NCBI GenBank assembly: GCA_902797255.1
Contig: CADBSN010000056.1
Coordinates: 1-36,600, forward strand
Reading direction: 5' to 3'
Origin: an uncultured Bacteroidales bacterium
Lineage (GTDB): Bacteria; Bacteroidota; Bacteroidia; Bacteroidales; Bacteroidaceae
DNA length: 36,600 nucleotides
This document shows positions 4,683 through 21,306 of this stretch, piece by piece (the first letter of the stretch is position 1; each line of letters begins with the position of its first letter). Below the pieces are notes generated by a model. The model saw nothing but the letters and a program-made list of their open reading frames with translations. It searched no databases and was not told the origin of the DNA. A program made the position numbers and the translations under genes.

Positions 4683-5983
4683 TGGAACCGGAAGTGAAAG
4701 TAGGAATCGTCCACGCCCAAAAGATACGACTCACCCTCAATGGTAGCTATACGGCTAAAGGAGAAACCGTAGACGGCCCTCAAGATGTGGCCTACGAAGA
4801 CGGTGGCATCCTTTGGAACGGGAATGTGTATCAGCGTCTGACATTCAAACCGCAGACGGATGATGCGTCGTTCTCGCTCTATGAGGTGACCATCGGAAAG
4901 GATTTCCATTGGGAACGGAAGGAAACGCAGACCTTCAGAGGCTTGTTGCAGTTTATTGTGGATGAAGGCCAGTTGTGTGCCATCAATATCCTGCCCGTAG
5001 AAGCTTATCTGGAGAGTGTCATCTCGTCGGAGATGAAAGCTACAGCTTCGTTGGAATTCCTAAAGGCGCATGCCGTGATTTCGCGTAGTTGGCTGATGGC
5101 CCAGATAGAGAAGCGTCAGAAAGCGGAGCAGGAGGAGCGTGATGCCTTCTTTTCTTTTAGGAAGACGGATACGGAACTGGTGAGATGGTACGACCGTGAG
5201 GACCATACATTGTATGATGTCTGTGCAGACGACCATTGTCAGCGCTATCAGGGTATTACGAAGGCAACCAGCGAGCAAGTGAAACAGGCCGTTGATGCCA
5301 CACGCGGTATTGTGTTGTATCATCAGGGTCAGATTTGTGATGCCCGATTCTCGAAGTGCTGTGGAGGTGTGTCGGAGGAATTCGGAACTTGTTGGGAAGA
5401 TGTTGACAAGCCTTACCTGAAAGCTGTTCGTGACGGAGCTGAGGATGCGGAATTGCCAGATTTGACGAATGAGGAAAACGCTCGGAAGTGGATTATGACG
5501 ATGCCTGATGCCTTCTGCAACACACAGAACAAGAAGATATTGTCGCAGATACTGAATAACTACGATCAGGAGACGGACGACTTCTATCGCTGGGCGCTGG
5601 AATATACGCCAGAAGAACTGAGTCGGCTCGTGGCCCAAAACCTAAAGGAGGACTTGGGCGAAGTGCTTGACCTCGTCCCACTCTCACGAGGGAAGTCGGG
5701 ACGCATCTACCGGCTTAAGATTGTGGGAACCAAGAAGAGTTATATCATCGGAAAAGAATTGGAGATACGTCGTGTGCTGTCTGACACCCATCTGTTCTCT
5801 TCTGCGTTCGTCGTCGATAAGCATTACGACCATTTCGTGTTGCACGGAGCAGGGTGGGGACATGGAGTCGGTCTCTGTCAGATTGGTGCAGCCGTGATGG
5901 GCGAGCAAGGTTATAGCTATAAACAAATCTTGCAGCACTACTATCCTGGCTCGTATCTGGCAACTGCATTAATGAATAATTGA
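4670..5983 (+). CDS. SpoIID/LytB-domain protein (peptidoglycan glycan-strand-cleaving / amidase-enhancer family)
   Basis: Motifs: [58 protein letters not shown]. The start overlaps the upstream stop. Alternative ATGs lie at 4679 and 4682. Confidence 0.85.
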
Positions 5984-6006
5984 TAATTAATAGATCGAAC
6001 ATCAAT

Positions 6007-7287
6007 ATGCTAAAAGATAAAATTAAAAAGCCTTTTGTGTGGGTTCCTACACTCTATTTCAGTGAGTCATTACCATTTTCGGCTGTGATGCTGATATCGG
6101 TCATTATGTTCAAGGATTTTGGACTGACCGACGGAGAAATCACGGTCTATACCGGATGGTTGGGACTACCCTGGGTGATTAAACCGCTATGGAGCCCGTT
6201 TATCGATAATTTCAAGACCAAACGCTGGTGGATTATATCGATGCAGTTCCTCATGGGAATCGCATTGGCTTGTGTGGCCTTCACCATTCCTACTGCCTAT
6301 TGGCTGCAGCTTACGTTGGCCTTCTTCATGTTGATTGCCTTTGCAAGTGCCACACATGATGTCTCAGCAGATGGTTTTTACATTATAGGCCTTTCGAATC
6401 GAGATCAGGAATTCTTTGTGGGAGTGCGTAACACCTTCTACCGTATCGGTATGGTAGTGGGTCAAGGGGTCTTGGTATCGCTTCAGGGACTCTTATCTCA
6501 TGGGTTGATGGACGTCGATGGTTTTCGTGAGACCCATAATGAGATATCGTGGGCCATCCTCTTTGTCGTGATAGCCTTGATGATGGCTTTGCTGGGCTTG
6601 TTCCATAGTTTCATGTTGCCAAAGATAGAAGTAGCCCTACACGAGGACTTCAACATCAAGACGCAGATGAAAGAGTTTTGGCAAACCTTAAAGGTGTTTG
6701 GTACCAAACCACATGTCATCACGGCCTTGCTGTTTATCCTCTTGTTCCGTTTGCCTGAAGGATTGCTGACGAAGATTGTGCCATTGTTCCTTACACGTGA
6801 CGTAGAGGACGGAGGACTGGGTATGAGCAACGTGGATTTCGGATTGATTTACGGTACGCTGGGTGTGATAGGGCTCTTGGCAGGAGGAATCGTAGGCGGC
6901 TGGGCCGTATCGAAATGGGGCCTGAAACGTTGTCTGTGGCCACTCGTGCTGTGTATCACGCTACCTGATGTGGTCTATGTGTACCTGAGCTATTTCCCAA
7001 CCGACCATATTTGGTTGACAGGAACCTGTGTGTGTATTGAACAGATAGGTTACGGCTTGGGATTTGCGGCATACACACTCTTCCTTGTTACGTTCTCACG
7101 TGGTGAACGCAGCACGGCAGTATTTGCAATCTGTACGGCTGGACAGTATCTGGGAGGTGTGATGTTGCCAGGAATGGTGTCGGGACTGATATCGGAGAAT
7201 GTCGGCTATCAGACCTTCTTCCTGATTGTGATGGCATTGTGTCTGGTCACATTTGCTGTCACAGCCTTGGTGAAAATAAAGGATTAG
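6007..7287 (+). CDS. ampG: AmpG-family MFS permease (muropeptide-type transporter)
   Basis: Multi-pass membrane protein. N-terminal AmpG-like motif: LGLPWVIKPLWSPFIDNFKTKRWWI. I prefer ATG 6007 over the TTG at 5980 given in the ORF track. Confidence 0.75.
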   Translation: MLKDKIKKPFVWVPTLYFSESLPFSAVMLISVIMFKDFGLTDGEITVYTGWLGLPWVIKPLWSPFIDNFKTKRWWIISMQFLMGIALACVAFTIPTAYWLQLTLAFFMLIAFASATHDVSADGFYIIGLSNRDQEFFVGVRNTFYRIGMVVGQGVLVSLQGLLSHGLMDVDGFRETHNEISWAILFVVIALMMALLGLFHSFMLPKIEVALHEDFNIKTQMKEFWQTLKVFGTKPHVITALLFILLFRLPEGLLTKIVPLFLTRDVEDGGLGMSNVDFGLIYGTLGVIGLLAGGIVGGWAVSKWGLKRCLWPLVLCITLPDVVYVYLSYFPTDHIWLTGTCVCIEQIGYGLGFAAYTLFLVTFSRGERSTAVFAICTAGQYLGGVMLPGMVSGLISENVGYQTFFLIVMALCLVTFAVTALVKIKD

Positions 7288-7828: not shown

Positions 7829-8443
7829 TTAGAGACCGAGTGACTTCTTTACATCATCGGCAGCCTTATCGATTGCTTCGTTAGCCTTTTGCTTCTGGGC
7901 TTCGATTGCTTCGTTAGCTTTCTGCTTCTGTGCCTCTACAGCCTCATTTGCCTTGTTTTCTGCCTCTTTCTTAGCGGCTTCTGTAGCATCTGCAGCTGCA
8001 TCAACAACTCCTTCTGCAGCATCTGTTGCGCTCTCTGCTACATCCAAAGGAAGATTTGCAGCTTTCTGTACGAGGTCAGCAATTGTCAATTCTGTAGATT
8101 CAGCAACAGTGGAGCTGATGGCTGTAACCTCTTCTTTGTTGGTTTCAAGGAAATCCTGAAGAGACTGCAGGTATTTCTGTGCAACCTCAACATTACCAGC
8201 ATTAATCAACGCTTGGATGCGTGCCTTGAATGCTTCGATAGAACTCTGGAGTGCTGGAGCATCTTTTGCCTCGACATCTGCAGTAATCTCCTCTATCAGT
8301 TCGTTGAGGTCTTCATCTACGATTGCTTCAACATCTGTTGATGTAGAATCTTGATCCGTGTTGGCAGATGTGCTTCCATTACATGCGCAGAAAGTGGCAG
8401 TAAATGCGATTGCCACAGCAACCATTACAATAATTTTCTTCAT
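7829..8443 (-). CDS. Lipoprotein, acidic Ala/Glu/Lys-rich and helical, with internal 11-aa repeats (EAIEAQKQKAN)
   Basis: Signal peptide and lipobox FCAC. A 33-bp DNA tandem repeat lies at about 7865-7950. TAttTTTG upstream at 8502-8509 (- strand). Confidence 0.75.
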   Translation of the reverse strand: MKKIIVMVAVAIAFTATFCACNGSTSANTDQDSTSTDVEAIVDEDLNELIEEITADVEAKDAPALQSSIEAFKARIQALINAGNVEVAQKYLQSLQDFLETNKEEVTAISSTVAESTELTIADLVQKAANLPLDVAESATDAAEGVVDAAADATEAAKKEAENKANEAVEAQKQKANEAIEAQKQKANEAIDKAADDVKKSLGL

Positions 8444-8584: not shown

Positions 8585-8592
8585 TATTTTTG
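8585..8592 (+). promoter_or_regulatory. -7 promoter motif TAttTTTG for the four-gene sensor array
   Basis: Ends 22 nt upstream of ATG 8614. Confidence 0.5.
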
Positions 8593-8613
8593 CAAGTGAA
8601 TTGATAATTTATC

Positions 8614-10554
8614 ATGAGAGTATTGCGTATAAATAGTAGTTCTGTTTTTGTGGCGCTTGTGTTGATGGCCATTATTCTCTGCGGATGTGATGAACATAGA
8701 AGATATGTGGGTAAGATGCATCATATTGTTGTGTTTCACTCATGGTCGGACGAGGGTGATGAGGGTGAGACTTTTTCCAAGACCATGGACGAAGCTCTAG
8801 AGTATCACAGAATGTACGCAACGGTACACCATATTTATCTTGATATGGCCAGTCATACTCCTGACGAAATCGATAAAACATTTTGGGATTCGTATGCAGA
8901 TTCCTTGAAAGCCTGGAAGCCTGAACTGATATTAATCAATGATGACCCGGCGATGCAATGGATGATGAGAGGCAAGCACGATGATGTTTTTAAAGAACTG
9001 CCCGTCGTCTTTGCCGGTGTCAACAGTCCGGATTTGGAATGGTTGCAAGACTACATGAATGTCACAGGATTCGTAGACAGATTAGAGGTTCCTAAGACTT
9101 GTGAGATGATTACGAAGCTGACAGGCGAAAAGACAATCATCATTGAATTGGACAACTATCCACACGACCGTTTCCTGCGCGAATTGATTAAGGATGACTT
9201 AGCCGCAGACTCCGGATTTATCGATAATAGCGATTTCCATTTGGAATTAGGTTCTCCAGAATACGAGGAGGCCATCAAGAATCAGACCTGCGTGATGATG
9301 GTATCATGCCAGAACCCATTGTTAGATATTGAACCGTCACGAAAGGAAAAGACCATCAAGATGATGAAAAACCTGATGAAGAACGCACATGATTATACGT
9401 TCTTGCAGGTGAAGTTTGATGTGTATAGTAATACTTTGCAGACTCGTGGCGGAAGACCGATGTTCACCTGTATCCGCGAGCAGTTTAATCAACCGGACAA
9501 TCCTAGAATCATCGGTGGTTACTTTACGGATCTCCGTACTCAAGTGTTTGACCAAATTCAGTATGCAGCTGCAATTTTGGAGGACGGACAGACCCCTGAT
9601 GCCATACCGATATCATTGCATTCCAAGGAACATCTGATTGACCATAACGCAATCGCTGCATTTAACCATCAGGAGTCGCGCCATTTGGATATGTTGGGGG
9701 GATTGAGAGAAATCCTTGTTGAAGGATGGGGCGAAGAGTATAATATCGTCAACACTCCATTCTACTTGAAGAACCGTCGATACTGGATTGTCGGTGTGGT
9801 TCTGTTCATTATTGCTTTTTGCATCGTCACTTCTTGGGTGGTGAAATTTATCAATAAACGAGTGACGGCTTATCGTGAAAAATTGACAGAAGAGATGGAC
9901 GAGGCGTTGAACTTCCGTCGTAACATCCTTTCGGATGCAGATTCCGCAGTATGGAAGTTTACGCATAATTCCGTGCAGTTTACGAGTGAGTTTGCGAAGA
10001 CGCATGGTATCAAACGTAGAATGAAATTCTCTGTATTTGAGAAGCATATCCATCCGGATTATATGAAGGAATGGAACAGACTGAAGAATTACCGTACAGA
10101 CTTAGGCCGCAGACGACTCAGATTGCAGATAGAGTTTCAACGAGGCTCGGGCTGGCATTGGTATGACTTTATATATAATGTAACAACAGAGGCCAGTTTC
10201 CGATGGGAGTTGAACGGACTGATTATCAGTACAGATGAGGTGATGACTCAGAAGCAGCAACTGATGGATGCTGTGAAGGATGCGAAAGAAGTAGAACTGA
10301 AAGAGAAGTTCCTTGCTAATTTCCGACATGTCTTGCAAGAACCATTGCAGACGGTTCTGAGGAATGCTCGTAAAATCATTTCAGGTACAGAGCAACAGAC
10401 AGAAGAGCAGCAAGAACAATATAACAAAGAACTCCATCAAGGAGCAACAGAGCTGATTGGGAATATCGATGCACTTGTTGCTGAGGTTCAGCCTATTGTG
10501 AATACTGCTGATGCAAGTTCTACACTTGGGACAGAAACGACAGGATTGATTTAA
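8614..10554 (+). CDS. Sensor protein, type A paralog: periplasmic ABC_sub_bind/PBP-like domain, TM helix, PAS-like segment and DHp with His, but no HATPase_c domain
   Basis: Lipobox ILCGC. PBP-like motif: PVVFAGVNSP...NVTGFVD. TM helix YWIVGVVLFIIAFCIVTSWVV. H-box FLANFRHVLQEPL. The protein ends about 75 aa after the H-box. Confidence 0.8.
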   Translation: MRVLRINSSSVFVALVLMAIILCGCDEHRRYVGKMHHIVVFHSWSDEGDEGETFSKTMDEALEYHRMYATVHHIYLDMASHTPDEIDKTFWDSYADSLKAWKPELILINDDPAMQWMMRGKHDDVFKELPVVFAGVNSPDLEWLQDYMNVTGFVDRLEVPKTCEMITKLTGEKTIIIELDNYPHDRFLRELIKDDLAADSGFIDNSDFHLELGSPEYEEAIKNQTCVMMVSCQNPLLDIEPSRKEKTIKMMKNLMKNAHDYTFLQVKFDVYSNTLQTRGGRPMFTCIREQFNQPDNPRIIGGYFTDLRTQVFDQIQYAAAILEDGQTPDAIPISLHSKEHLIDHNAIAAFNHQESRHLDMLGGLREILVEGWGEEYNIVNTPFYLKNRRYWIVGVVLFIIAFCIVTSWVVKFINKRVTAYREKLTEEMDEALNFRRNILSDADSAVWKFTHNSVQFTSEFAKTHGIKRRMKFSVFEKHIHPDYMKEWNRLKNYRTDLGRRRLRLQIEFQRGSGWHWYDFIYNVTTEASFRWELNGLIISTDEVMTQKQQLMDAVKDAKEVELKEKFLANFRHVLQEPLQTVLRNARKIISGTEQQTEEQQEQYNKELHQGATELIGNIDALVAEVQPIVNTADASSTLGTETTGLI

Positions 10555-10557
10555 AGA

Positions 10558-12882
10558 GTGATTGACGAATTGAACAATAGAATAAAATTGAAGAAGGCAT
10601 TCTACATATTGCAGAGAGTGATGGTGCTAGCTGGCATGATCGGATTGTTGTATGGATGTACCCCCAAACGTTCGATTAAAGTGCTGGTTGTGCATCAATA
10701 TAATGAAGAGCTGGTTACCTATGACCCATTCGATGAAGCCATCATTGACGAATTCAGAGACGAAGGATACGATCCTACAATCGTGAACTATTACATGGAT
10801 TTGGAAGATCAGGCTCAGATGGATTCGCATAAGATTTTGGTGGAGATGCGTGATTCGCTTCAAAAGAGGAATTGGACACCGGATGTGATTCTTGCGGAAG
10901 GAGACAGAACTTTGTTCCAATGGAATAAATCGGATAACGAATCCGTCCTGTCATGGTGTAAAGAGATTCCGATTGTGTATGGAGGAATTCGTTACTACAA
11001 TATTCCTGTCTTTGCAAATAAAGAAAATTCATATATCATCTCTGAGCAGATAAACATGCGCAGGAATATGGATATCATCACCCGACTGACACATAGCAAG
11101 ATTGTCGCTATCGAGTTGGACCATTACCACGAAGACTCGTTGATTTATACTCAGATCAATCATCAGTTGGGTAAATCACCATATTCTGTAGTCAAAGATA
11201 GTACGGGATATGTGCAAGGACGATTGGATCCCGTCATTCATTGTAATGATACGTTAGACATTTATTTCTATTCTTCGGAATGGGACGAAGAGAGTACGGG
11301 TATGTACGCTATGTCGGCAGATGCCGATCAGACGGATTCGCTGATTGTGCCTACTATTATGAATCGACAGGTGCTGTTGGACAATATGTATCAAAATGCC
11401 TGGAGATATCCGGTTCTTGTTCCTAAAAAAGATGTGTGGTGTGAAGCCATCTCGTCAAAGACCTATCGGCCACAGTTTACAACCTGCCATGAGTTGTTCC
11501 AAGATGGAAAAGGCTCTTATCTTGCGGGCTACTTTACCAGCTATCCTATAATGGCGCAAGATATGGTTCAGGTGGCTGTTGGGGTACATGAGGGCAACAG
11601 GATGCCAAAGAGGAGTATGCATAGCCAGAATGCTCACATGGATTATATCGCGATGAAGAAGTTGGGCATGAAATACGGTGATTACAAAGATGACTTCATC
11701 ATCGACAATGCTCCAATGAAGGTGACAGATCCGCTGCTTTATAGTATTGTGACCTTTGGATATATCGTATTGGCAGTCTTGGTTATCTTAATGGTTACCC
11801 TGATTTGGTTGAAGAATCGAAAGGATTCAATCCGAAACATTTCGGCCATGCTTGATGAAGAAAGGGAGATGAACCAGTTGGCGATAGATGCCTCAGGAAA
11901 CTTCTATTTCTCAACGTTGAAAGGTTTGGAGCGTGTGTTAGACAGTATGGCTCCAGATCAGGAAAAATGTAAGGACGACATCAACAAGTCGTTGAAGGAT
12001 ATGGGTACGCATACTCATTCATACCGTGTTAGGGCTGCGATGGACGAAGAGAAAAATATGGCGTGGTGGAATTTGCGATATCAAGTTAATTACAATACTG
12101 CTGTTGGTTTTAATATCGAGGGATATTTGCTCAACGTGAATGATGATGTGAACTATGCCAACGAAATGGAGCAGATTCAGAAGATTGCTGATGAGACCAA
12201 GCGTACAGAGGGGTTCCTTTGGACGATGGCGCATGAAATACGTACACCACTCAATTCTATTGTGGGTTTCTGTGATGTGATTAAGATGATGGGTAATGAA
12301 ATGAGCGAGCAGGAGTGGACACAGATTGTTCAGGGAATAGAGTCGAATAACCAGTTGCTTGAAAAGATTGTGTACGATATGGAGGGATACTCACGTGCTG
12401 TTGCTCACGAGGTGGTTTATGAAAAGGAACCAATCAATGTGGATGATTTGATGGAGGAAGTGTTTTCTGAGAATTCTTCTCGTTTTGAGAAGCAGGGATT
12501 GAAGTTCAATCTGGTAAAGGGACGTAGCGATGTGCAGGTGAATGCTGACAGAGGAAGATTGAAAGAATCATTGTGTCAGTTGGTTGATAACGCATTAAAA
12601 TTCACTCAGAAAGGTAGTGTCGCTTTGGGTTGGGAGTATAATCTGGATCATGGAAATGTAGAATTGTTTGTGGAAGATTCTGGAATCGGTATTAACGCAG
12701 AAGACCTACCTCTCATTTATGATATGTTCTGGAAGAAAGATACATTTGTTCCTGGTGTAGGTATCGGTCTGGCTTTAGCCAAGACCTATATTGAAGCAAT
12801 GGGTGGAAAAATATCTGTGGTGAGCGAAAAAGATCTAGGAAGCCGTTTTATTGTTGTATTAAAAGTGATTGAATCAGCATGA
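10558..12882 (+). CDS. Sensor histidine kinase, type B paralog: PBP-like periplasmic domain with a canonical HisKA and HATPase_c
   Basis: Lipobox LLYGC. H-box MAHEIRTPLNSIVGF. N box VDNALKFT. G1 EDSGIGI. G2 GVGIGLALAK. GTG start 3 nt after the upstream stop. Confidence 0.85.
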   Translation: MIDELNNRIKLKKAFYILQRVMVLAGMIGLLYGCTPKRSIKVLVVHQYNEELVTYDPFDEAIIDEFRDEGYDPTIVNYYMDLEDQAQMDSHKILVEMRDSLQKRNWTPDVILAEGDRTLFQWNKSDNESVLSWCKEIPIVYGGIRYYNIPVFANKENSYIISEQINMRRNMDIITRLTHSKIVAIELDHYHEDSLIYTQINHQLGKSPYSVVKDSTGYVQGRLDPVIHCNDTLDIYFYSSEWDEESTGMYAMSADADQTDSLIVPTIMNRQVLLDNMYQNAWRYPVLVPKKDVWCEAISSKTYRPQFTTCHELFQDGKGSYLAGYFTSYPIMAQDMVQVAVGVHEGNRMPKRSMHSQNAHMDYIAMKKLGMKYGDYKDDFIIDNAPMKVTDPLLYSIVTFGYIVLAVLVILMVTLIWLKNRKDSIRNISAMLDEEREMNQLAIDASGNFYFSTLKGLERVLDSMAPDQEKCKDDINKSLKDMGTHTHSYRVRAAMDEEKNMAWWNLRYQVNYNTAVGFNIEGYLLNVNDDVNYANEMEQIQKIADETKRTEGFLWTMAHEIRTPLNSIVGFCDVIKMMGNEMSEQEWTQIVQGIESNNQLLEKIVYDMEGYSRAVAHEVVYEKEPINVDDLMEEVFSENSSRFEKQGLKFNLVKGRSDVQVNADRGRLKESLCQLVDNALKFTQKGSVALGWEYNLDHGNVELFVEDSGIGINAEDLPLIYDMFWKKDTFVPGVGIGLALAKTYIEAMGGKISVVSEKDLGSRFIVVLKVIESA

Positions 12883-15260
12883 AATTGATAAAATACATAT
12901 CATTCGTTATTGTCACAACCTTCCTGTTGATAGGATGTGGTAGAGGCTCTGGTGAAGATGCTGATTATCGTGTTTTTGTGATTCACTCAAACGATAGCAT
13001 TGGTGAGGATGGAGCCCCCTATCAGCAGTATATGGCAAAACGTTTCGAGGAAGAAGGAATCAACGCAAAAATCTCCCACTTTTATGCCGATTTTATTCAC
13101 ACGCCAACGAAAAATCTGATTGTTGAAAGTTTGGAGGGTTTGAAGAGGTTGAAGAAATTTAACCCCGATGTGATTATTGTCGACGGAGACGGAATGACGA
13201 ATATACTCCTCAAAGATGTCAGTAGTTTCTCTCCTGAGGCTGAGGCAGAGAAGAGGGCAGTCTTTGAGAAAATACCAATAGTGTTTGGTGGTGTCAATCA
13301 GTTGGATCGTGAAGCTTTGTCTCACCACAAGAACATGACAGGATTTGTTGACGAGATAGACTTGAAACGTAATTTGGAAATCGTCAATAAGATTACCGGT
13401 AGTCATAATGTGCTGATAGAACTTGACCATTTTGCGAACGATTCTTTGTTACAGCGTGATTTGAAACGACAGATTCAGGATAGTAGATTTGTTGACAACT
13501 CAGACTTTCATGTGCATAAATTAGATGTTCAGTCGGTAGCAAAAGAGTTTCCTGATAAGATTGTGGTTAGTTTCATCTCTTCTGCAGAACCAGAAACCAA
13601 TAGCTGTTTCGATGATCCTTTGTTGATGTCCTTTGGAAAAGACCGTGCGTTGTTGCGTGGGTTGTTGCATACTTTGAAGGGTAATTGGCTGCTACAGGTA
13701 AAGAACGATATCTTCAGCAATAGCTTCCTTCGTCATACAGAGCATCCTCAGTTTACGGCGATTCGTGCAAAGTTTAACAATCCAGAAGAAGTGCGTTTGC
13801 TGGGAGGTTACTTCTCGCTGATGGAGACGCAGGTCGATGATGTTGTGGGTTATGCCGTACAGATTCTGCACGGAGCGAACCCTCAGAGTCTCCCCGTCAA
13901 GATTCATAACTCCGACTATTATATGGACTATAATGCCATGATCAAATGGACGGCAACACCGATGGATTATGATGACTATAAAGATAGTTTCACGATTCTT
14001 AATGTTCCATTTAAGGTGCGTCATCCATTCGTCTTTTGGATTTGTGTCTTATTCCTGGTAATGTTAGTTTTTGGAATTATCAGCTATTTCGGTTATTATA
14101 TGCTGAATTATAAATCGGCAAATGAGCGTATCATGACAACGATTATGCGACGTGAGAAAATCCGTCGTTTGATGTTGATTCATTCTCAGAACTTGATTTA
14201 TTGGTTTATTGACAATGATCAGATACGTCTGCAAAAAGGATTTGCTGATAAGTACGGACTTCCTCAGGAGATGCTACTTGATGACTTTGGAAAGATGGTC
14301 ATGAAAGATAGCGTTTTTGCCTGGAAACTGATTACAGAGTATGGTGATGAGACTGGCTCTAACAAAGTGCGAATACATCTGCAACTTACGCCAGAGGAAG
14401 CACATTGGATAGAATTCCGCTTCAATTCTACGCATGAATTAAGGCGTAAACGCTCGTTGATGGGAACGGCGGTGATCTGTGATGAAGAAGTGGAGGAAGA
14501 GGAGAATATTGATCGCTTGAACGCTATTGCCAACGAGAGTGTGTTGCGTCAGTCATTCCTCAGCAACATGAGTCGGAACATCCGAAATCCGTTGAACGGT
14601 GTGTTGGGTTTCTCACAATTGATTGCTGCGGATGATTTGCAGTTCAGCAAAGAGGAGTTGGAAGACTTCAATCAACAACTGAAAGAGAATGCCCAAGAGA
14701 TTATTCAGGCAATAGAAGATACGTTGCAGGAGTCACGTCATGAACTTGAAGACATAGAGTTGCGACCGATTGCTACACCTGCCCGTGATTTCATGAATAC
14801 CATTTATCAATCTAATCAATTGATTATGCCGTCACACCTCCAGTTACGTTTGATGTGTGATGCTGAGGATGCGTTTGTAATGATGGCTCCGGCCTATACG
14901 CGTACTGTCATGAATGAATTTATCAATAACGCGATCAAATACACGGTGACAGGATATATCGAGATAGGGTATACAGTATTGCTAGGAAAAGATTTAGTGA
15001 AATTCTATTGTAAGGACACGGGTATTGGACTTAGTGAGGAAAATCTTCCGCGTGTCTTCGATAGTCATTTCAAAGTACTTGAATACGAAAAAGGTGCAGG
15101 TCAAGGACTCGCAAATGCCAAGACTATTATTGAAAAGGAAGATGGTGAAATCGGTGCTGAGAGTCAAGAAGGGGTTGGCAGCACGTTCTGGTTTACGTTG
15201 AAAAAAATCGATGCCAATCTTGTTGCGGAATTGGAAGAGAAGGAAAAAATGCAAGTATAA
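12879..15260 (+). CDS. Sensor kinase-like protein, type A paralog: phospho-acceptor His replaced by Arg, HATPase_c boxes intact
   Basis: Lipobox LLIGC. PBP-like motif: IPIVFGGVNQ...NMTGFVDE. H-box position reads FLSNMSRNIRNPLNGVLGF. N box NNAIKYT. G1 KDTGIGL. G2 GAGQGLANAK. ATGA overlap with the upstream gene. Confidence 0.85.
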   Translation: MKLIKYISFVIVTTFLLIGCGRGSGEDADYRVFVIHSNDSIGEDGAPYQQYMAKRFEEEGINAKISHFYADFIHTPTKNLIVESLEGLKRLKKFNPDVIIVDGDGMTNILLKDVSSFSPEAEAEKRAVFEKIPIVFGGVNQLDREALSHHKNMTGFVDEIDLKRNLEIVNKITGSHNVLIELDHFANDSLLQRDLKRQIQDSRFVDNSDFHVHKLDVQSVAKEFPDKIVVSFISSAEPETNSCFDDPLLMSFGKDRALLRGLLHTLKGNWLLQVKNDIFSNSFLRHTEHPQFTAIRAKFNNPEEVRLLGGYFSLMETQVDDVVGYAVQILHGANPQSLPVKIHNSDYYMDYNAMIKWTATPMDYDDYKDSFTILNVPFKVRHPFVFWICVLFLVMLVFGIISYFGYYMLNYKSANERIMTTIMRREKIRRLMLIHSQNLIYWFIDNDQIRLQKGFADKYGLPQEMLLDDFGKMVMKDSVFAWKLITEYGDETGSNKVRIHLQLTPEEAHWIEFRFNSTHELRRKRSLMGTAVICDEEVEEEENIDRLNAIANESVLRQSFLSNMSRNIRNPLNGVLGFSQLIAADDLQFSKEELEDFNQQLKENAQEIIQAIEDTLQESRHELEDIELRPIATPARDFMNTIYQSNQLIMPSHLQLRLMCDAEDAFVMMAPAYTRTVMNEFINNAIKYTVTGYIEIGYTVLLGKDLVKFYCKDTGIGLSEENLPRVFDSHFKVLEYEKGAGQGLANAKTIIEKEDGEIGAESQEGVGSTFWFTLKKIDANLVAELEEKEKMQV

Positions 15261-15263
15261 CGA

Positions 15264-17540
15264 ATGAGAAAAACTATCATATATATCATGACCATCATTC
15301 TCTCAGCATTATTGTTGGGAGGCATATTGGCATGTAATAACGAAAATAACCAGCGTAAGCATGTGCTTATACTTCTGACCAATGATAGTCAGCATGTCCA
15401 GTATACTGATTTCGTCAAGGAAATCCAGCAAACCATTGAATTGAGTGGCTATGCTACTGAATGCAAGGTGGTGTATATGGATCTCGAATATGCGCCAGAT
15501 GCTGCATATACAGTATTGCGTCAGATGAATGATTCATTGCAGAAGATTGGATGGGTTCCAAATGTTATCATCACAGAGAACGACCGTTCAGCTCGTATTC
15601 TACTCGCTGATACTTCCAATACGTTCTTTAATTTGAAGCAAACGCCAATCGTACTTGGATCGATTAGCTACCCTGAGGAGATTAATCTAGAAGGAAGGAC
15701 CAATATCTGTATGTGGATCAACAAGATTGATTTTTATGAGAATATCAAGCTTGCATATTCATTGTCGGGCAGCAATCAAGTACAAATAGAACTAGATAAT
15801 TTCATCTATGATGTGCTGATACGACGTGAGTTGAATGAGGCCATCAGTCGTCCTCCGTTTGTCAGGAATTTCGACGGGGAGTTGGGGCTTTTTAGTGAGC
15901 AGCAACTTTCGGAGAAATATAAAGATAGTATCGTGGTCACTACTCAAAGAATCGATTATGGCTGGTACGATATCCATAATCCAAGCGATACAGTTTTGAA
16001 ACGTAGGGAGCAACTGCGTACTTTCTTTAAGCAGTCGAGTAAGTATCCTACGCTTGTGGTGAAGAAAGATTTCTATTGCGATGCGATTGCCACAAAATCC
16101 AATCTCCCGCAATATACAGCCATTGCTACAGATTTTGCTGATGGAATGGGTAGTTATCTTGCTGGTTACTTCGCAAGTTATAGTACGATTGCTCACGATT
16201 GTGGTTTAGCTACAGCCCGTATATTTAACGGTGCTAATCCACGTAGCATCAGTGGGCAAGCCCATAAGAAGTATTTCTGGATGGACTATGATGCCATGCA
16301 GAAAATGGGTATGAAGTACGATGATTATATTGATCAATTCCGCATCGTTAACGCTCCGTTTGAAATTGAGCATCCAACGTTGTATCTGGTGCTTATCATT
16401 TCTGGAGTTTTATTCACACTACTTGTTTTGTTCGGTATATGGCTTATCGTTTCAAAGATGCGTAAGGGTTTGCAGGAAGAAAAAATGCAGGTAATAGGCC
16501 GTTCTCGAAACATTAGCCGATTGTGTTTGAACAGTATTGAGAATATGCCTATCGAGACAATAGACGATATCAAGAAATATATTTCATTAGCTCATCCTAA
16601 GAGTAAGAAAGAAATAGACCAGGTTCGCGAGAGTCTCAACAAACCAGGCTCTTACAGTTTCCTTATTTATTGTGCTCCAAAGGATGATGATAATTATCAG
16701 TGGTGGGAATTCCGATATGATATCACATCTTCAGACGTGATTGGATTAATCATCAATAAGCAAGAGGCAATCAAATTGAAGGAACGTCTGGATAGTGTTA
16801 CGCGTAGTAGTAATGAGGCGAGTCTTAAAGAAGCCTTCTTCAACAACCTTAGTAAGGAAGTGAAGAAGCCGCTAGATGAGATGTGTAGTGCTTGCGACAG
16901 GTTGGTCAATGATAAATTGACAAAGACCGAGCGTGAAAAGGTAGTTGCCGAACTGCAGGAGAGTAGTGAATCTGTTTCTCAGGGTCTGGGTGACATCCTC
17001 CTTTTCTCTAAAATAGAATCTGGACGTCTTAGATATGTGATAACGGAGAAGGATGCAGGTGATTTCTTAACAGGATTCTATCATGAAGTATCTTCAAAAG
17101 TCCCATCACATCTTAAGTTTGTGTTGATTCCCGGACGTCCAGGTGTGTATGCACAGGCTGACTTCGATCGACTCCGTAATGTGTTGACCCAGTTCTTACT
17201 GAACGCAATCAAATTCACGAAAGAGGGATCTATCGAGATAGGGTGGCGCTATCATCTGGATAGCCATGAGTGCGAGTTCTTTGTTGAGGATACAGGAATC
17301 GGTATTCCTGCAGCATCAAAAGAAAGACTATTTGACCTCTTCTGGAAGGGTGATGAGACCTCTGACGGCGTCGGAGTGGGACTTAATATCTGCCGTAGTC
17401 TAACCGAAGCGATGGAGGGACATATCACTGTGGGAAGTATCGTAGGAAAAGGTAGTCGATTCAGTATTTGGTTACCAGCAAGGGCTGTCTCACAGGGTCA
17501 GGAGTTGCCAGAACCACAAGGCACCACAAAGATTTTGTAG
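15264..17540 (+). CDS. Sensor kinase-like protein, type B paralog: phospho-acceptor His replaced by Lys, HATPase_c boxes intact
   Basis: Lipobox ILAC. H-box position reads FFNNLSKEVKKPL, followed by LLFSKIESGRL. N box LNAIKFT. G1 EDTGIGI. G2 GVGVGLNICR. Confidence 0.85.
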   Translation: MRKTIIYIMTIILSALLLGGILACNNENNQRKHVLILLTNDSQHVQYTDFVKEIQQTIELSGYATECKVVYMDLEYAPDAAYTVLRQMNDSLQKIGWVPNVIITENDRSARILLADTSNTFFNLKQTPIVLGSISYPEEINLEGRTNICMWINKIDFYENIKLAYSLSGSNQVQIELDNFIYDVLIRRELNEAISRPPFVRNFDGELGLFSEQQLSEKYKDSIVVTTQRIDYGWYDIHNPSDTVLKRREQLRTFFKQSSKYPTLVVKKDFYCDAIATKSNLPQYTAIATDFADGMGSYLAGYFASYSTIAHDCGLATARIFNGANPRSISGQAHKKYFWMDYDAMQKMGMKYDDYIDQFRIVNAPFEIEHPTLYLVLIISGVLFTLLVLFGIWLIVSKMRKGLQEEKMQVIGRSRNISRLCLNSIENMPIETIDDIKKYISLAHPKSKKEIDQVRESLNKPGSYSFLIYCAPKDDDNYQWWEFRYDITSSDVIGLIINKQEAIKLKERLDSVTRSSNEASLKEAFFNNLSKEVKKPLDEMCSACDRLVNDKLTKTEREKVVAELQESSESVSQGLGDILLFSKIESGRLRYVITEKDAGDFLTGFYHEVSSKVPSHLKFVLIPGRPGVYAQADFDRLRNVLTQFLLNAIKFTKEGSIEIGWRYHLDSHECEFFVEDTGIGIPAASKERLFDLFWKGDETSDGVGVGLNICRSLTEAMEGHITVGSIVGKGSRFSIWLPARAVSQGQELPEPQGTTKIL

Positions 17541-17567: not shown

Positions 17568-17597
17568 AAAAACCGAAAGTTGAATGCTTTCGGTTTT
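17568..17597. terminator. Bidirectional intrinsic terminator between the sensor array and hsp20
   Basis: The hairpin aaaaaccgaaag-ttgaatg-ctttcggtttt has U-tracts on both strands. Confidence 0.7.
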
Positions 17598-19434: not shown

Positions 19435-21300
19435 TCATTCCAACATTTTCTGTAGCACCTCGTCGTTTCCGTTATCTGCATAGTAAGCGACGAATTCCTT
19501 TGGCGACATACCGAAGTATGCACGGAATACATTACTGAAATAGGGGTGCGATGAGAATCCCATGCGGTAAGCTACGTCCGATATGCTGACTTTATTGTTT
19601 ACCAGCAGGTAGGCCGACTGTTTCAAACGGTATGAACGTATGAAGTTGACTGGCGACATTCCATAACGTTCCTTCATCTTGCGATTCAAATGTACGCGAC
19701 TTACGCCAACTTCGCTGGCCAGTTCGTTCACACCGAAAGTTGAGTCGTCTATATGTGCCTTGATGGCTTGAATTACTTTCCCGAACAGTTTGTCATCTGG
19801 ACTGTCGATCGTTGTTTCGTTGTAGTCGAATCCTACTTCTGTACGTCTCAGACGGCTCATCATGCGTTCTCTGACGCGCATGCTGTGTGCAACTGCTCCT
19901 TGCAGCATGAGTGGGTTGAATGGTTTGTTGATAAAGTGGTCTACATCGAGGTTCAGACTATAAATCATCGTCTTATCGCTACTTTCGCTGGTAAGGATAA
20001 TGATTGGCAGGTTGTCCGTATCTGGGTTGCTCCTGATACGTTTACACAGCTCTATTCCGTCGCATACAGGCATGCGGATATCTGTGACGACAGCATCTGG
20101 ACGTTGTGTCAGAATCTGCTGCCATGCATTGTTTCCGTCGTAGGCCATCATGATGTTGTAGCGCTCTTTGAGGATATCCCTTATGTAGTTACACAGGGTC
20201 GTATCGTCGTCTACGATGAGAACCGTCCGAATCTTCTTCTCGCCTGTTTCTTCCTCCTCTGTCTCTTCCATGTCGATATCGGGTACATCCATCAGTTCCT
20301 CCATCGTAGGCTCTACATGCTCTTCTGGCTCTCTCGTTTCCAATTCGTCTGTACTGAGGTGGGTACGTCCCAATGGAAATTGCATCGTAAATTCCACTCC
20401 GTCCGGATCTACGTTATTTACCGTGATGGTGCCATGATGCAGATTCACCAGTTCAGTAGCTAGGTTCAGTCCGATTCCCGAACCTCCGACATTGAGCGAC
20501 TCCTGATTGCGTGCTTGATAGAATCGCTCGAAGATATGAGGTAAGTCGTGTGGGTCGATCGACGATCCGCTGTTGTACACACGGATTTCAAACCAGTCTT
20601 TAGCGTCCTTGATGATGTTTCGTGTCCTCACAATCACTCTTCCACCCTCAGGCGTGAACTTGAAGGCATTCGATAGCAGGTTAGTCAGAATCTTCTCGAA
20701 GTGTATTCTGTCGAGCCAAATGTTGACATTGTTGTTTGCATGTTCAATCACAAAAGAGATCCGTTTCGATATAGCATATCCGGTGAATGTCTTGAAAATC
20801 TCGTCGGCATACGATGCAAAGTTTGTCTCCGAGAAGTGCAACTCAAACTGCCCGCTATCAATCTTACGGATATCTGTCACCTGTTTCACGATGCCAAGCA
20901 AACGGTCGCAATTCATGTTCATCAATTTATACAGACTCTGACGCTGTTCCTTGTGTTCGCCCTTTCGTCCTTCGCTCTTTGTCTCTTCCTCTTCACTCAT
21001 GAGTTGCCGCAAGGGTGATACAATCATCGTCAGCGGTGATTTCATCTCGTGTGCGATGCTCGCAAACATCCTCAGTTTCGCCTCTTTGATTTGCTCGTTG
21101 TGACTCACCTGAGCCAGCAGATGTTTCTGCCGTTCACGTTCTTTATAGGTGTTGTAAAGATAGTATGCGATCAGTACTGCAATAGCTAGATAAATCAACC
21201 AGGCCCACCATGTGGCGTACCAAGGATAACCCACATGGATGTCCAACGATTTCTCCACTACAGCGTTTTCGTTATTCTCGTAATATGCCCTTACCGTCAT
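19435..21300 (-). CDS. C-terminal fragment of a hybrid two-component system regulator: TM helix, HisKA, HATPase_c, REC and AraC-type HTH
   Basis: TM WYATWWAWLIYLAIAVLIAYYLY. H-box IAHEMKSPL. N box SNAFKFT. G2 GGSGIGLNLA. REC VLIVDDD...VVTDIRMP. AraC MGFSSHPYFSNVFRAYFGMSPKEF. Same frame as 21307..23532. Confidence 0.85.
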   Translation of the reverse strand: MTVRAYYENNENAVVEKSLDIHVGYPWYATWWAWLIYLAIAVLIAYYLYNTYKERERQKHLLAQVSHNEQIKEAKLRMFASIAHEMKSPLTMIVSPLRQLMSEEEETKSEGRKGEHKEQRQSLYKLMNMNCDRLLGIVKQVTDIRKIDSGQFELHFSETNFASYADEIFKTFTGYAISKRISFVIEHANNNVNIWLDRIHFEKILTNLLSNAFKFTPEGGRVIVRTRNIIKDAKDWFEIRVYNSGSSIDPHDLPHIFERFYQARNQESLNVGGSGIGLNLATELVNLHHGTITVNNVDPDGVEFTMQFPLGRTHLSTDELETREPEEHVEPTMEELMDVPDIDMEETEEEETGEKKIRTVLIVDDDTTLCNYIRDILKERYNIMMAYDGNNAWQQILTQRPDAVVTDIRMPVCDGIELCKRIRSNPDTDNLPIIILTSESSDKTMIYSLNLDVDHFINKPFNPLMLQGAVAHSMRVRERMMSRLRRTEVGFDYNETTIDSPDDKLFGKVIQAIKAHIDDSTFGVNELASEVGVSRVHLNRKMKERYGMSPVNFIRSYRLKQSAYLLVNNKVSISDVAYRMGFSSHPYFSNVFRAYFGMSPKEFVAYYADNGNDEVLQKMLE

Positions 21301-21306
21301 GGTGTA

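What the first reader, a model, noticed from the sequence alone, without database searches (positions are those of the whole stretch)
8614..17540. A-B-A-B array of four paralogous periplasmic-binding-domain sensor kinases with complementary catalytic degeneration and no response regulator
Seen: four back-to-back + strand genes (gaps +3, -4 and +3 nt) share one architecture. Each has a lipoprotein-type signal, a ~350-aa periplasmic domain with ABC_sub_bind/PBP-like motifs (PVVFAGVNSP..NVTGFVD; IPIVFGGVNQ..NMTGFVDE), one TM helix, a PAS-like segment and a DHp. Genes 1 and 3 pair by similarity (NSDFHLELG / NSDFHVHKLD; GGYFTDLRTQV / GGYFSLMETQV). Genes 2 and 4 also pair (SYLAGYFTSY / SYLAGYFASY; MDYIAMKKLGMKYGDYKDDF / MDYDAMQKMGMKYDDYIDQF). 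This indicates a duplicated two-gene module. Gene 1 keeps the His (FRHVLQEPL, CAT 10327-10329) but has no ATPase domain. Gene 2 is fully canonical (AHEIRTPL, CAT 12232-12234). Genes 3 and 4 have Arg (CGG 14574-14576) and Lys (AAG 16854-16856) at the His position, yet retain the N, G1 and G2 boxes. No REC-domain gene belongs to the unit. Established: histidine kinases autophosphorylate within dimers, and His-less or CA-less paralogs can act only through partners. Inference: these may form a heteromeric, multi-ligand sensing complex, with trans-phosphorylation of gene 1 or 2 DHp by gene 3 or 4 ATPase domains, or with the degenerate members acting as pseudokinase modulators. I do not recognise this as a described signalling system.
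Basis: partly seen in the sequence, partly recalled or inferred. Interest (0 to 1): 0.75.

Follow-up and report, generated by a model that had tools for sequence, protein, structure and literature searches.

The report
Duplicated sensor-kinase pair with pseudokinase subunits
Four neighbouring genes in an uncultured rumen or gut Bacteroidales bacterium encode related membrane sensor kinases, of which only one still has a standard phosphorylation site; relatives show that this one-active, three-degenerate arrangement is old, conserved and under selection, which points to an undescribed multi-sensor signalling complex.

Summary

Each protein has a lipoprotein-type signal, a periplasmic binding-protein fold closest to ABC_sub_bind, one TM helix, a PAS domain and a DHp. 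Genes 2-4 also carry a CA domain.

Comparison with about 30 related loci, all from uncultured Bacteroidales MAGs or metagenome contigs, shows:
- **Basic unit:** an A-B pair, always adjacent and often fused into one ~1,500-aa four-TM protein with two canonical H-boxes.
- **Origin of the array:** one ancient duplication of that pair.
- **Losses since then:** A1 lost its CA domain once. B2 lost its His once. A2 lost the acidic neighbour and then the His, repeatedly. In another branch B1 lost its His instead.
- **What is always kept:** at least one canonical H-box and three CA domains with ATP-binding motifs (two single-box exceptions).
- **Selection:** all four genes have dN/dS of about 0.05-0.13.

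Decay and sequencing error are excluded. No response regulator is linked in any locus examined.

Most likely this is a hetero-oligomeric multi-sensor kinase, with gene 2 as the only phosphodonor and the others as pseudokinase sensor subunits. I rate it a new variant of a known kind, of moderate to high interest.

The parts
8586..8593 (+). TATTTTTG, a match to the Bacteroidetes -7 promoter motif TAnnTTTG, about 20 nt upstream of gene 1; putative operon promoter
   Evidence: Read directly from the sequence. The consensus is from my own knowledge, and the tool's sigma-70 scan does not cover this promoter type. Inference only.
8614..10554 (+). Gene 1 (A1), 646 aa: lipobox (Cys23/25), PBP-like periplasmic domain (~aa 36-386), TM (~392-412), PAS-like domain (~444-539), DHp-like helical hairpin (541-645). 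It has no CA domain.
   Evidence: AF2 model, pLDDT 81. Foldseek top hits are ABC_sub_bind structures 6hni, 3lft and 3lkv, plus PAS domains 3mr0 and 8js5. Fifteen orthologue clusters are all 589-652 aa with no HATPase_c.
10327..10329 (+). CAT = His572 of gene 1, in a non-canonical H-box (R-H-V-L-Q-E-P-L: no acidic residue at H+1, no T/N at H+4)
   Evidence: Orthologues carry H, Q, S or A at this position.
10558..12882 (+). Gene 2 (B1), 774 aa: full sensor kinase and the only member with a canonical H-box (A-H-E-I-R-T-P-L). HisKA aa 553-613, HATPase_c aa 664-769.
   Evidence: Its DHp has the lowest dN of the four (0.03-0.09).
12232..12234 (+). CAT = His559 of gene 2, the predicted phospho-acceptor
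   Evidence: H-E is conserved in 11 of 13 four-module species.
12879..15260 (+). Gene 3 (A2), 793 aa: same architecture with HisKA (aa 557-622) and HATPase_c (aa 675-776), but Arg at the His position. N, G1, F and G2 boxes are intact. Its start overlaps the end of gene 2 by 4 nt (ATGA).
   Evidence: Periplasmic domain model (12942-14027): pLDDT 88, pTM 0.87. Foldseek 6hnj E 2e-10 and 3lkv E 4e-10. dN/dS 0.06-0.08.
14574..14576 (+). CGG = Arg566 of gene 3, at the phospho-acceptor position
   Evidence: Orthologues carry Q (most), K, R or H-S, with H-D in deeper branches. The same g3 protein is encoded in an independent assembly.
15264..17540 (+). Gene 4 (B2), 758 aa: same architecture with HisKA (weak, aa 522-587) and HATPase_c (aa 633-740), but Lys at the His position. 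N, G1, F and G2 boxes are intact.
   Evidence: dN/dS 0.05-0.07.
16854..16856 (+). AAG = Lys531 of gene 4, at the phospho-acceptor position
   Evidence: No B2 orthologue in 13 species has His here (K, N, S or R).
17569..17597 (.). 12-bp-stem hairpin with T-runs on both strands, between gene 4 and the convergent Hsp20 gene; likely bidirectional terminator marking the end of the operon

Best explanation
The four genes form one operon encoding four paralogous inner-membrane sensor proteins. They belong to a small, uncharacterised kinase family found only in uncultured rumen and gut Bacteroidales.

**Module architecture.** Each module has a lipoprotein-type signal or anchor, a periplasmic type-I binding-protein fold closest to ABC_sub_bind, one TM helix, a cytoplasmic PAS domain, a DHp hairpin and (except in gene 1) a CA ATPase domain.

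**Origin.** The family's basic unit is an A-B pair. The window's A1-B1-A2-B2 array arose from one ancient tandem duplication of that pair. The redundant catalytic parts were then lost piecemeal.

**Proposed mechanism (inferred).** The four proteins assemble into one hetero-oligomeric, multi-ligand sensor. Gene 2 (B1) is the only subunit that becomes phosphorylated on His and passes phosphate to a response regulator encoded elsewhere. Genes 1, 3 and 4 are ligand-sensing pseudokinase subunits. They set gene 2's activity through DHp, PAS or periplasmic contacts. The ATP-binding CA domains of genes 3 and 4 either phosphorylate gene 2's His in trans or act as nucleotide-dependent allosteric modules.

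**Shown here:** architecture, paralogy, history of losses, selection and absence of a linked regulator. **Inferred:** physical assembly, direction of phosphate flow, ligand class and output.
For: 1. **Architecture.** Pfam and NCBIfam hits, hydropathy, AF2 models and Foldseek.
2. **A and B are always adjacent, in the order A then B.** This holds in all ~30 loci recovered, as two genes (L006, L023, L026, L027) or as one 1,519-1,574-aa ORF with four hydrophobic segments (L017-L022, L025, L028). A1-B1 is fused in L004, L005 and L024. In the window both A-to-B junctions are in frame, separated only by TAA plus one codon.
3. **One duplication.** An NJ tree gives clean A1, A2, B1 and B2 clades with the same species topology.
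4. **Mosaic loss.**
 - Two-module systems have two canonical H-boxes.
 - In four-module systems A1 never has a CA domain or an H-plus-acid motif.
 - B2 never has His.
 - A2 goes from H-D to H-S to Q, R or K.
 - In L004 and L005 B1 has Y or F, while A2 keeps H-D.
 - Every array keeps at least one canonical H-box.
5. **CA motifs.** The N, G1, F and G2 boxes are kept in A2 and B2 orthologues, apart from a degenerate G2 box in L007 A2 and L010 B2.
6. **Purifying selection.** It acts on all four genes and on every domain. Whole-gene omega is 0.05-0.13 and per-domain values are 0.03-0.16; the His-less genes have the lowest whole-gene values.
7. **Not an error.** An independent assembly encodes the same g3 protein.
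8. **Translational coupling.** The ATGA overlap and 3-nt gaps fit fixed stoichiometry.
9. **Precedents.** Co-encoded kinase/pseudokinase heterodimers and kinase-kinase complexes are known: FasB/FasC (PMC12675982) and RetS-GacS (PMC8498467).
Against: - There is no direct evidence of physical interaction.
- Gene fusion is equally compatible with dimers of fused chains in which A pairs with A and B with B. It proves co-function and co-stoichiometry, not an A:B interface.
- The cognate regulator and the ligands are unknown.
- All data come from MAGs and metagenome contigs; no cultured strain carries the system.
- dS is near saturation (1-2.7), so omega values are approximate.
- The tree is distance-based only.
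- In L004 and L005 the only canonical His sits on an A-type protein. 'B1 is the phosphodonor' therefore holds for the window's clade, not for the whole family.
- Retention of ATP-binding motifs in His-less members could reflect a structural nucleotide requirement rather than trans-phosphorylation.
Confidence: 0.5

Rival explanations
1. Parallel, independent sensors. Each paralogue forms its own homodimer. Gene 2 is an ordinary kinase. Gene 3, which keeps the T/N residue at H+4 and a DHp helix-1 surface like canonical A-type kinases, works as a phosphatase-only or regulator-binding protein, as DivL does. Genes 1 and 4 act as decoys or scaffolds. [quoted passage not shown]
For: A2 orthologues keep N or T at H+4 and the PLNxVxGFSxL surface after losing His. 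B2 and A1 have diverged there. In two-module relatives the A and B helix-1 surfaces are nearly identical, which suggests one shared regulator. A Tyr at the His position, as in DivL, occurs in L004 B1 and in P0256 and P0385. The roles of H+1 and H+4 come from established HisKA biochemistry (my own knowledge).
Against: It does not explain why A and B are never found apart and are repeatedly fused. It does not explain why CA-less A1 and His-less B2, whose regulator-docking surface has diverged, stay under strong purifying selection with intact ATP motifs.
Confidence: 0.25
2. Complementary paralogue heterodimers. A1 (His, no CA) pairs with A2 (CA, no His), and A2's CA phosphorylates A1's His572 in trans. 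Likewise B2's CA phosphorylates B1's His. Neither degenerate protein works alone.
For: Within the crown clade (the window, L001, L002, L010-L014, and clusters P0228-P0241) A1 always keeps His, while A2 has lost either the His or its acidic neighbour. Paralogue heteromers that arise from an ancestral homodimer are a common outcome of duplication (PMC6711710). FasB/FasC gives a precedent for one partner's CA phosphorylating the other's His.
Against: A1's His is followed by V or I, never by the acidic residue needed for HisKA autophosphorylation. There is no T/N at H+4. A1 has Q, S or A at that position in L007, L015, L016, L024, L004 and L005. L007 and L015 have no His in either A1 or A2, yet keep both genes intact.
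Confidence: 0.12
3. Decay or artefact. Genes 1, 3 and 4 are pseudogenising remnants of a recent duplication, or the Arg and Lys codons and the missing CA domain are sequencing or assembly errors.
For: The neighbouring hybrid two-component gene in the window is broken by an in-frame TAG. Gene 1 is disrupted in one relative, L002.
Against: The same features recur in orthologues across 13 species. Whole-gene omega is 0.05-0.13 and no domain exceeds 0.16. The ORFs are intact. An independent assembly encodes the same g3 protein. The CA-less A1 form is fixed in 15 clusters.
Confidence: 0.03

Closest known systems
FasB/FasC of group A Streptococcus (three-component system FasBCA)
   Same: Two adjacent, co-transcribed sensor-kinase-like genes whose products heterodimerise. 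One is proposed to be a pseudokinase, and one partner's CA domain is proposed to phosphorylate the other's His (PMC12675982).
   Different: The Fas locus encodes its own response regulator (FasA) and has two proteins, not four. The sensor domains are unrelated. There is no PBP fold, no gene fusion and no duplicated pair.
RetS-GacS (with LadS and PA1611) multikinase network of Pseudomonas aeruginosa
   Same: Sensor kinases regulate one another by direct DHp contacts. One partner acts mainly as a modulator rather than as a phosphodonor (PMC8498467, PMC5992135).
   Different: Those kinases are unlinked, are not recent paralogues, are hybrid types with REC or Hpt domains, and keep their His residues.
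DivL of Caulobacter (pseudo-histidine kinase with Tyr at the His position)
   Same: A HisKA-type protein that lacks the phospho-acceptor His, keeps a CA domain and works through partners. Tyr at the His position also appears in this family (L004 B1, P0256, P0385). The comparison with DivL rests on my own knowledge.
   Different: DivL is a single cytoplasmic PAS protein. It is not part of a paralogue array and has no periplasmic sensor.
Plant ethylene receptors (subfamily 2 lacks the kinase motifs and forms heteromers with subfamily 1)
   Same: Duplicated histidine-kinase receptors in which some paralogues have degenerate catalytic motifs and work in heteromeric receptor clusters (my own knowledge; PMC10968091 was listed).
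   Different: They are eukaryotic, with a different sensor domain and output (CTR1), and are not organised as an operon.
Sensor kinases with binding-protein-type periplasmic domains (BvgS/EvgS Venus-flytrap kinases; Bacteroides hybrid two-component sensor BT1754)
   Same: A periplasmic bilobed binding-protein fold fused through one TM helix to a PAS-DHp-CA core (PMC4352136 was listed; BT1754 is from my own knowledge).
   Different: BvgS uses tandem type-II lobes and carries REC and Hpt domains. BT1754 carries REC and AraC domains. Neither occurs as A-B pairs, fusions of two complete kinases or His-less paralogues. Here the fold is closest to ABC_sub_bind.
ABC_sub_bind (PF04392) solute-binding proteins: CD0873, S. 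pneumoniae 3LFT, V. cholerae 3LKV
   Same: They are the best structural matches to the periplasmic domains of genes 1 and 3 (E 2e-10 to 2e-8, TM 0.6-0.69 on the target). Solved members bind L-Tyr, L-Trp and L-Phe (PMC10443332).
   Different: Sequence identity is only 13-15%. The Pfam gathering score is not reached (best E 1.5e-4 in 5 of 30 modules). These are transporter components, not receptor domains, so the ligand cannot be transferred.

Membership tests
HisKA-type sensor histidine kinase (Pfam HisKA + HATPase_c) | DHp domain matching HisKA | tested here: met
   g2 E 1e-9, g3 E 2e-9, g4 E 7e-5 (below the gathering score). g1 has no Pfam hit, but it aligns to the family H-box region and is modelled as a helical hairpin.
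HisKA-type sensor histidine kinase (Pfam HisKA + HATPase_c) | Phospho-acceptor His followed by an acidic residue (H-E/D-x-x-T/N-P-L) | tested here: not met
   Met only by g2 (AHEIRTPL). g1 has RHVLQEPL, g3 has SRNIRNPL and g4 has SKEVKKPL. Genes 1, 3 and 4 are therefore kinase homologues, not predicted kinases.
HisKA-type sensor histidine kinase (Pfam HisKA + HATPase_c) | CA domain with N, G1, F and G2 boxes | tested here: met
   Met for g2, g3 and g4 (HATPase_c E 9e-19, 9e-16 and 2e-22; motifs). Not met for g1, which ends 67 residues after the H-box motif.
HisKA-type sensor histidine kinase (Pfam HisKA + HATPase_c) | Autophosphorylation and phosphotransfer to a cognate response regulator | not testable with these tools
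   No REC gene is linked in any locus. Biochemistry is required.
ABC_sub_bind (PF04392) binding-protein family | Sequence match above the Pfam gathering score | tested here: not met
   No hit for the four full proteins. Sub-threshold hits in 5 of 30 periplasmic modules, best E 1.5e-4. A PDB profile search found nothing.
ABC_sub_bind (PF04392) binding-protein family | Bilobed type-I periplasmic binding-protein fold most similar to solved family members | tested here: met
   AF2 pLDDT 88 and 81. The top Foldseek hits are 6hnj/6hni, 3lkv and 3lft, all ABC_sub_bind structures.
ABC_sub_bind (PF04392) binding-protein family | Binding of an aromatic amino acid, as in solved members | not testable with these tools
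   Ligands of solved members are given in PMC10443332. At 13-15% identity no transfer is justified.
Co-encoded kinase/pseudokinase heteromer (FasBC-like) | Adjacent co-transcribed kinase-like genes, one of them catalytically degenerate | tested here: met
Co-encoded kinase/pseudokinase heteromer (FasBC-like) | Physical heterodimerisation through DHp domains | not testable with these tools
   Only single-chain prediction up to 1,200 aa was available. The natural fusions are 1,329-1,574 aa.
Co-encoded kinase/pseudokinase heteromer (FasBC-like) | Dedicated response regulator in the same locus | tested here: not met
Bacteroidetes hybrid two-component system | REC and AraC-type HTH domains fused to the kinase | tested here: not met
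   None of the four proteins has REC or HTH domains. The neighbouring gene at 19435-23532 (-) does, but it is a separate gene and is not syntenic.
Pseudo-histidine kinase of the DivL type | His replaced, CA retained, and the gene conserved under selection | tested here: met
   True for g3 and g4.
Pseudo-histidine kinase of the DivL type | Binds a phosphorylated response regulator and allosterically controls a partner kinase | not testable with these tools
   Requires experiments.

The most novel reading that the evidence does not exclude
The A-B unit is an obligate heterodimeric histidine kinase. In the fused species it would be a single 1,500-aa, four-TM polypeptide whose two DHp hairpins form an intramolecular four-helix bundle. 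The window's four proteins would then build a hetero-tetrameric bacterial receptor with four different ligand-binding flytrap domains, three ATP-binding domains and a single phosphorylation site. That makes it a prokaryotic counterpart of heteromeric flytrap receptors such as NMDA or class C GPCR dimers. It would also be a natural example of subunits becoming mutually dependent through complementary loss after duplication.
Probability: 0.3. Interest if true: 0.8.

Novelty: new variant of a known kind. Interest (0 to 1): 0.6.

Why it matters
Histidine kinases are usually treated as homodimers that each feed one regulator. Here a natural series exists within one small family:
- two adjacent kinases;
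- two complete kinases fused in one chain;
- a duplicated array in which CA or His was lost in different members in different lineages, while at least one canonical H-box and three CA domains persist (two with a degenerate G2 box).

This series gives a testable system for three questions: how kinase paralogues become interdependent, whether CA domains of His-less kinases phosphorylate partners in trans, and how several binding-protein-type sensors are combined into one output.

It also defines an uncharacterised sensor family, about 100-300 clusters at 50% identity. The members that could be traced to organisms all come from abundant, uncultured rumen and gut Bacteroidales.

Tried and rejected
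- **Genome scan, first attempt.** The scan with the 19-sequence alignment failed because it had no conserved stretch. I repeated it with closer sequences.
- **Sensor domain by sequence.** A PDB profile search and Pfam on the full proteins gave nothing. Only structure prediction plus Foldseek identified the fold.
- **Sequencing error.** Rejected, because an independent assembly encodes the same g3 protein.
- **Pseudogene decay.** Rejected, because omega is well below 1 in every domain and the features are conserved across species.
- **Stop-codon read-through joining A and B in the window.** Considered because both junctions are in frame. Both stops are TAA and nothing supports read-through.
- **The neighbouring hybrid two-component gene as the missing regulator.** Rejected. 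It lies on the opposite strand, is interrupted by TAG in the window and is absent from the neighbourhood in L002, L005, L006 and L010.
- **The 450-aa ORFs downstream of fused arrays as NtrC-type regulators.** Rejected. They are a DNA methylase, or in L020 a DEAD-box helicase; the ORF immediately downstream of the L017 array is a sodium:solute symporter.
- **The 895-aa ORFs near arrays in the window and in L017.** They are unrelated.
- **Sigma-70 promoter scan.** Uninformative for Bacteroidetes.
- **Rfam.** It found only a tRNA at the window's end.
- **Literature.** Searches for tandem, dual or double histidine kinases, and for ABC_sub_bind kinases, found no description of this system.

Full report
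**1. What is in the sequence**

Four + strand ORFs lie at 8614-10554 (g1, 646 aa), 10558-12882 (g2, 774 aa), 12879-15260 (g3, 793 aa) and 15264-17540 (g4, 758 aa). The gaps are +3, -4 and +3 nt. Pfam finds HisKA plus HATPase_c in g2, g3 and g4 and nothing in g1. NCBIfam gives only sub-threshold similarity to kinase cores of the TorS, ArcB, BarA and LuxQ type.

The four-way alignment places these residues at the phospho-acceptor position:

| Gene | H-box | Residue |
|---|---|---|
| g1 | FRHVLQEPL | His572 |
| g2 | AHEIRTPL | His559 |
| g3 | SRNIRNPL | Arg566 |
| g4 | SKEVKKPL | Lys531 |

g1 ends 67 residues after the H-box motif and has no CA domain.

All four proteins have a lipobox-like L-x-[GA]-C after an N-terminal hydrophobic stretch, and a second hydrophobic segment near residue 380-415.

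Pairwise BLASTP confirms the A-B-A-B pattern. g1-g3 score 231 bits, against 91 and 127 bits for g1 with g2 and g4. g2-g4 score 333 bits.

A hairpin with T-runs at 17569-17597 follows g4. A TAnnTTTG-type motif sits about 20 nt upstream of g1 (my reading). The unit therefore looks like one operon.

**2. Domains**

- An AF2 model of the g3 periplasmic domain is confident (pLDDT 88, pTM 0.87). Its best PDB matches are CD0873 (6hnj, E 2e-10) and V. cholerae 3lkv (E 4e-10). Ribose- and xylose-binding proteins, LuxP and NMDA-receptor amino-terminal domains follow.
- The full g1 model (pLDDT 81) shows the same fold at residues 36-386. A TM helix runs into a long helix (388-441), followed by a β/α domain (444-539) and a helical hairpin (541-589 and 597-645).
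- The top four Foldseek hits for g1 are all ABC_sub_bind structures (6hni, 3lft, 6hnj, 3lkv). PAS domains (3mr0, FixL 8js5) match the cytoplasmic β/α domain.
- By sequence the link to PF04392 is only sub-threshold: 5 of 30 modules, best E 1.5e-4. A PDB profile search finds nothing.
- Solved ABC_sub_bind proteins bind L-Trp, L-Tyr and L-Phe (PMC10443332). At 13-15% identity this is only a hint about the ligand class.

**3. Relatives**

Searches of 5.8 billion proteins recover only small sets of full-length homologues for g3, g4 and g1. Nearly all come from metagenomes. The only name given is a generic 'HAMP domain-containing histidine kinase [Bacteroidaceae bacterium]'.

A scan of one genome per GTDB species finds 18 loci. 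All are in uncultured Bacteroidales, Bacteroidaceae or Prevotellaceae MAGs from rumen, sheep, buffalo, deer, horse faeces and human (Hadza) gut.

A profile of the four periplasmic domains, run against 1.84 billion cluster representatives, finds 114 clusters at E<1e-30 and 306 at E<1e-10. Most are about 750-800 aa, with a set of 1,330-1,560-aa proteins.

**4. Architectures**

In every locus an A-type module is followed by a B-type module.

| Arrangement | Loci |
|---|---|
| Two genes, A + B | L006, L023, L026, L027 |
| One ORF of 1,519-1,574 aa, complete A fused to complete B | L017-L022, L025, L028 |
| Fused A1(no CA)-B1 of 1,361-1,381 aa (gene calls), plus A2 and B2 | L004, L005, L024 |
| Four genes | the window, L001-L003, L007, L008, L010-L016 |

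The fused proteins have four hydrophobic segments. This gives a coherent out-in-out-in topology.

In the window both A-to-B junctions are in frame and separated only by TAA plus one codon. Split and fused states therefore differ by very little.

An NJ tree on 739 columns resolves A1, A2 and two-module A on one side, and B1, B2 and two-module B on the other. The species topology is the same within A1, B1, A2 and B2. This implies one ancient duplication of the pair.

**5. History of the catalytic sites**

| Module | State of the H-box across species |
|---|---|
| Two-module A and B | both canonical (SHDLRTPL and SHEIRTPL) |
| A1 (g1 type) | always lacks CA. H-V or H-I in the window's crown clade; Q in L007, L015 and L016; S in L024 and L005; A in L004. 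Never H followed by an acidic residue. |
| B1 (g2 type) | AHEIRTPL everywhere except L004 (Y) and L005 (F) |
| A2 (g3 type) | H-D in L016, L024, L004 and L005; H-S in L010 and L012; Q-D in L007 and L015; Q, R or K in the window's closest relatives |
| B2 (g4 type) | never His (K, N, S or R) |

Three points follow:
- Every array keeps at least one canonical H-box, but which protein carries it differs between clades.
- In A2 the acidic residue was lost before the His, and the His was then replaced several times. That is the pattern expected once autophosphorylation has already been lost.
- The N, G1, F and G2 boxes are retained in A2 and B2 orthologues. There are two minor exceptions, a degenerate G2 box in L007 A2 and in L010 B2.

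In the wider family most representatives are canonical. Other fused pairs with a degenerate second H-box do exist: P0250 has K and P0256 has Y.

**6. Selection and data quality**

Against three congeneric species (72-83% amino-acid identity), dN/dS is:

| Gene | dN/dS |
|---|---|
| g1 | 0.10-0.13 |
| g2 | 0.10-0.12 |
| g3 | 0.06-0.08 |
| g4 | 0.05-0.07 |

Every domain is constrained, including the CA domains of g3 and g4 (0.05-0.08) and the g1 hairpin (0.11-0.14). The g2 DHp has the lowest dN. dS is high (1-2.7), so these ratios are approximate.

An independent assembly (ERZ1029111) is 99.906% identical over 6,382 bp and encodes the same g3 protein. It does not reach the g4 Lys codon. For g4, the identical 758-aa protein is on record from another contig, and all orthologues lack His there.

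The 15 g1 orthologue clusters are all 589-652 aa without a CA domain. Decay and error are therefore excluded.

**7. Response regulator**

No REC-domain gene lies next to the array in the window or in any related locus examined.

The hybrid two-component gene downstream in the window is on the other strand, is broken by an in-frame TAG and is not syntenic elsewhere.

In L017, a fused two-module locus, the ORF directly downstream of the array is a sodium:solute symporter. ORFs of matching size and position follow the arrays in most of the other fused loci but were not annotated.

**8. Interpretation**

The evidence shows an old, selected system in which one phosphorylatable kinase coexists with three sensor-bearing homologues that cannot be phosphorylated in the usual way.

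Four findings make a joint, hetero-oligomeric sensor the best explanation (confidence about 0.5): constant A-B adjacency, repeated fusion, translational coupling, and the mosaic pattern of 'at least one H-box, three ATP-binding domains'. In this reading g2 is the phosphodonor in this clade.

Fusion does not by itself distinguish A:B heterodimers from A:A plus B:B pairing within a dimer of fused chains.

The rivals are:
- independent homodimers with phosphatase-like or DivL-like roles for g3 (0.25);
- decay or artefact (0.03).

**9. Comparison with known systems**

Kinase/pseudokinase partnerships are known. Examples are FasB/FasC (PMC12675982), RetS-GacS (PMC8498467), and DivL and the ethylene receptors (my own knowledge). 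Binding-protein-type sensor domains on kinases are also known (BvgS, BT1754).

No description turned up of two things: two complete membrane kinases fused in one chain, or a duplicated A-B array with lineage-specific complementary loss.

I rate this a new variant of a known kind, with interest 0.6.

Noticed in passing
window 19435-23532 (- strand); stop codon at 21307-21309: A hybrid two-component system gene (beta-propeller/Y_Y_Y sensor, HisKA, HATPase_c, REC, AraC HTH) is split into two ORFs by a single in-frame TAG. The orthologue in L001 is an intact 1,372-aa gene. This is either a nonsense pseudogene or an assembly error.
   Followed up: partly
window 10552-10560 and 15258-15266: Both A-to-B junctions (g1 to g2 and g3 to g4) are in the same reading frame, separated only by TAA plus one codon. 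In other species the corresponding genes form one continuous ORF. The B-to-A junction instead has a frame-shifted ATGA overlap.
   Followed up: yes
L017-L022, L025, L028, L004, L005, L024 (internal junction of the fused ORFs, e.g. L017 aa ~805-830): The fused double kinases keep a lipobox-like motif (…L-P-S-S-C, …T-S-C, …S-S-C) at the end of the internal hydrophobic segment. This raises the possibility that the polyprotein is cut by signal peptidase II into A plus a lipidated B, or that B is also translated from an internal start.
   Followed up: no
L017 14518-15957, and ORFs of similar size and position in L018, L019, L021, L022, L025, L028: In L017 a sodium:solute symporter family gene lies immediately downstream of the fused two-module kinase, with a 0-3 nt gap, so it may be co-transcribed and may hint at the sensed solute. 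ORFs of matching size follow the arrays in the other fused loci but were not annotated. No such gene follows the four-gene array in the window.
   Followed up: partly
window 7829-8443 (- strand), with counterparts in L001, L002, L007 and L010: A ~200-aa lipoprotein rich in Ala, Glu and Lys, with repeated 'EAxKQKANEAI' segments (a weak apolipoprotein-like hit in L010), is transcribed divergently from the array. It is conserved upstream of it across the four-module clade. Its function is unknown; it could be a regulated target or an accessory factor.
   Followed up: no
L002 5752-7621 (and L003): In one relative the gene 1 orthologue is interrupted near its N-terminus (called as 93 + 511 aa), while genes 2-4 are intact. 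This is either assembly error or lineage-specific loss of A1.
   Followed up: no
L004 2801-6886 (aa ~1119), P0256, P0385: Some B-type modules carry Tyr at the phospho-acceptor position (ISYIIRGPL, MAYEIHTPL), the same substitution as in the Caulobacter pseudokinase DivL. One orthologue (L005) has Phe.
   Followed up: partly
window 2391-7287 (+ strand): The upstream genes encode a GT2-DUF4922 fusion protein, a SpoIID-domain protein and an MFS/BT1-type permease. They are syntenic with the array in L001, L002 and L007. This looks like a cell-envelope gene set; any link to the sensors is untested.
   Followed up: no
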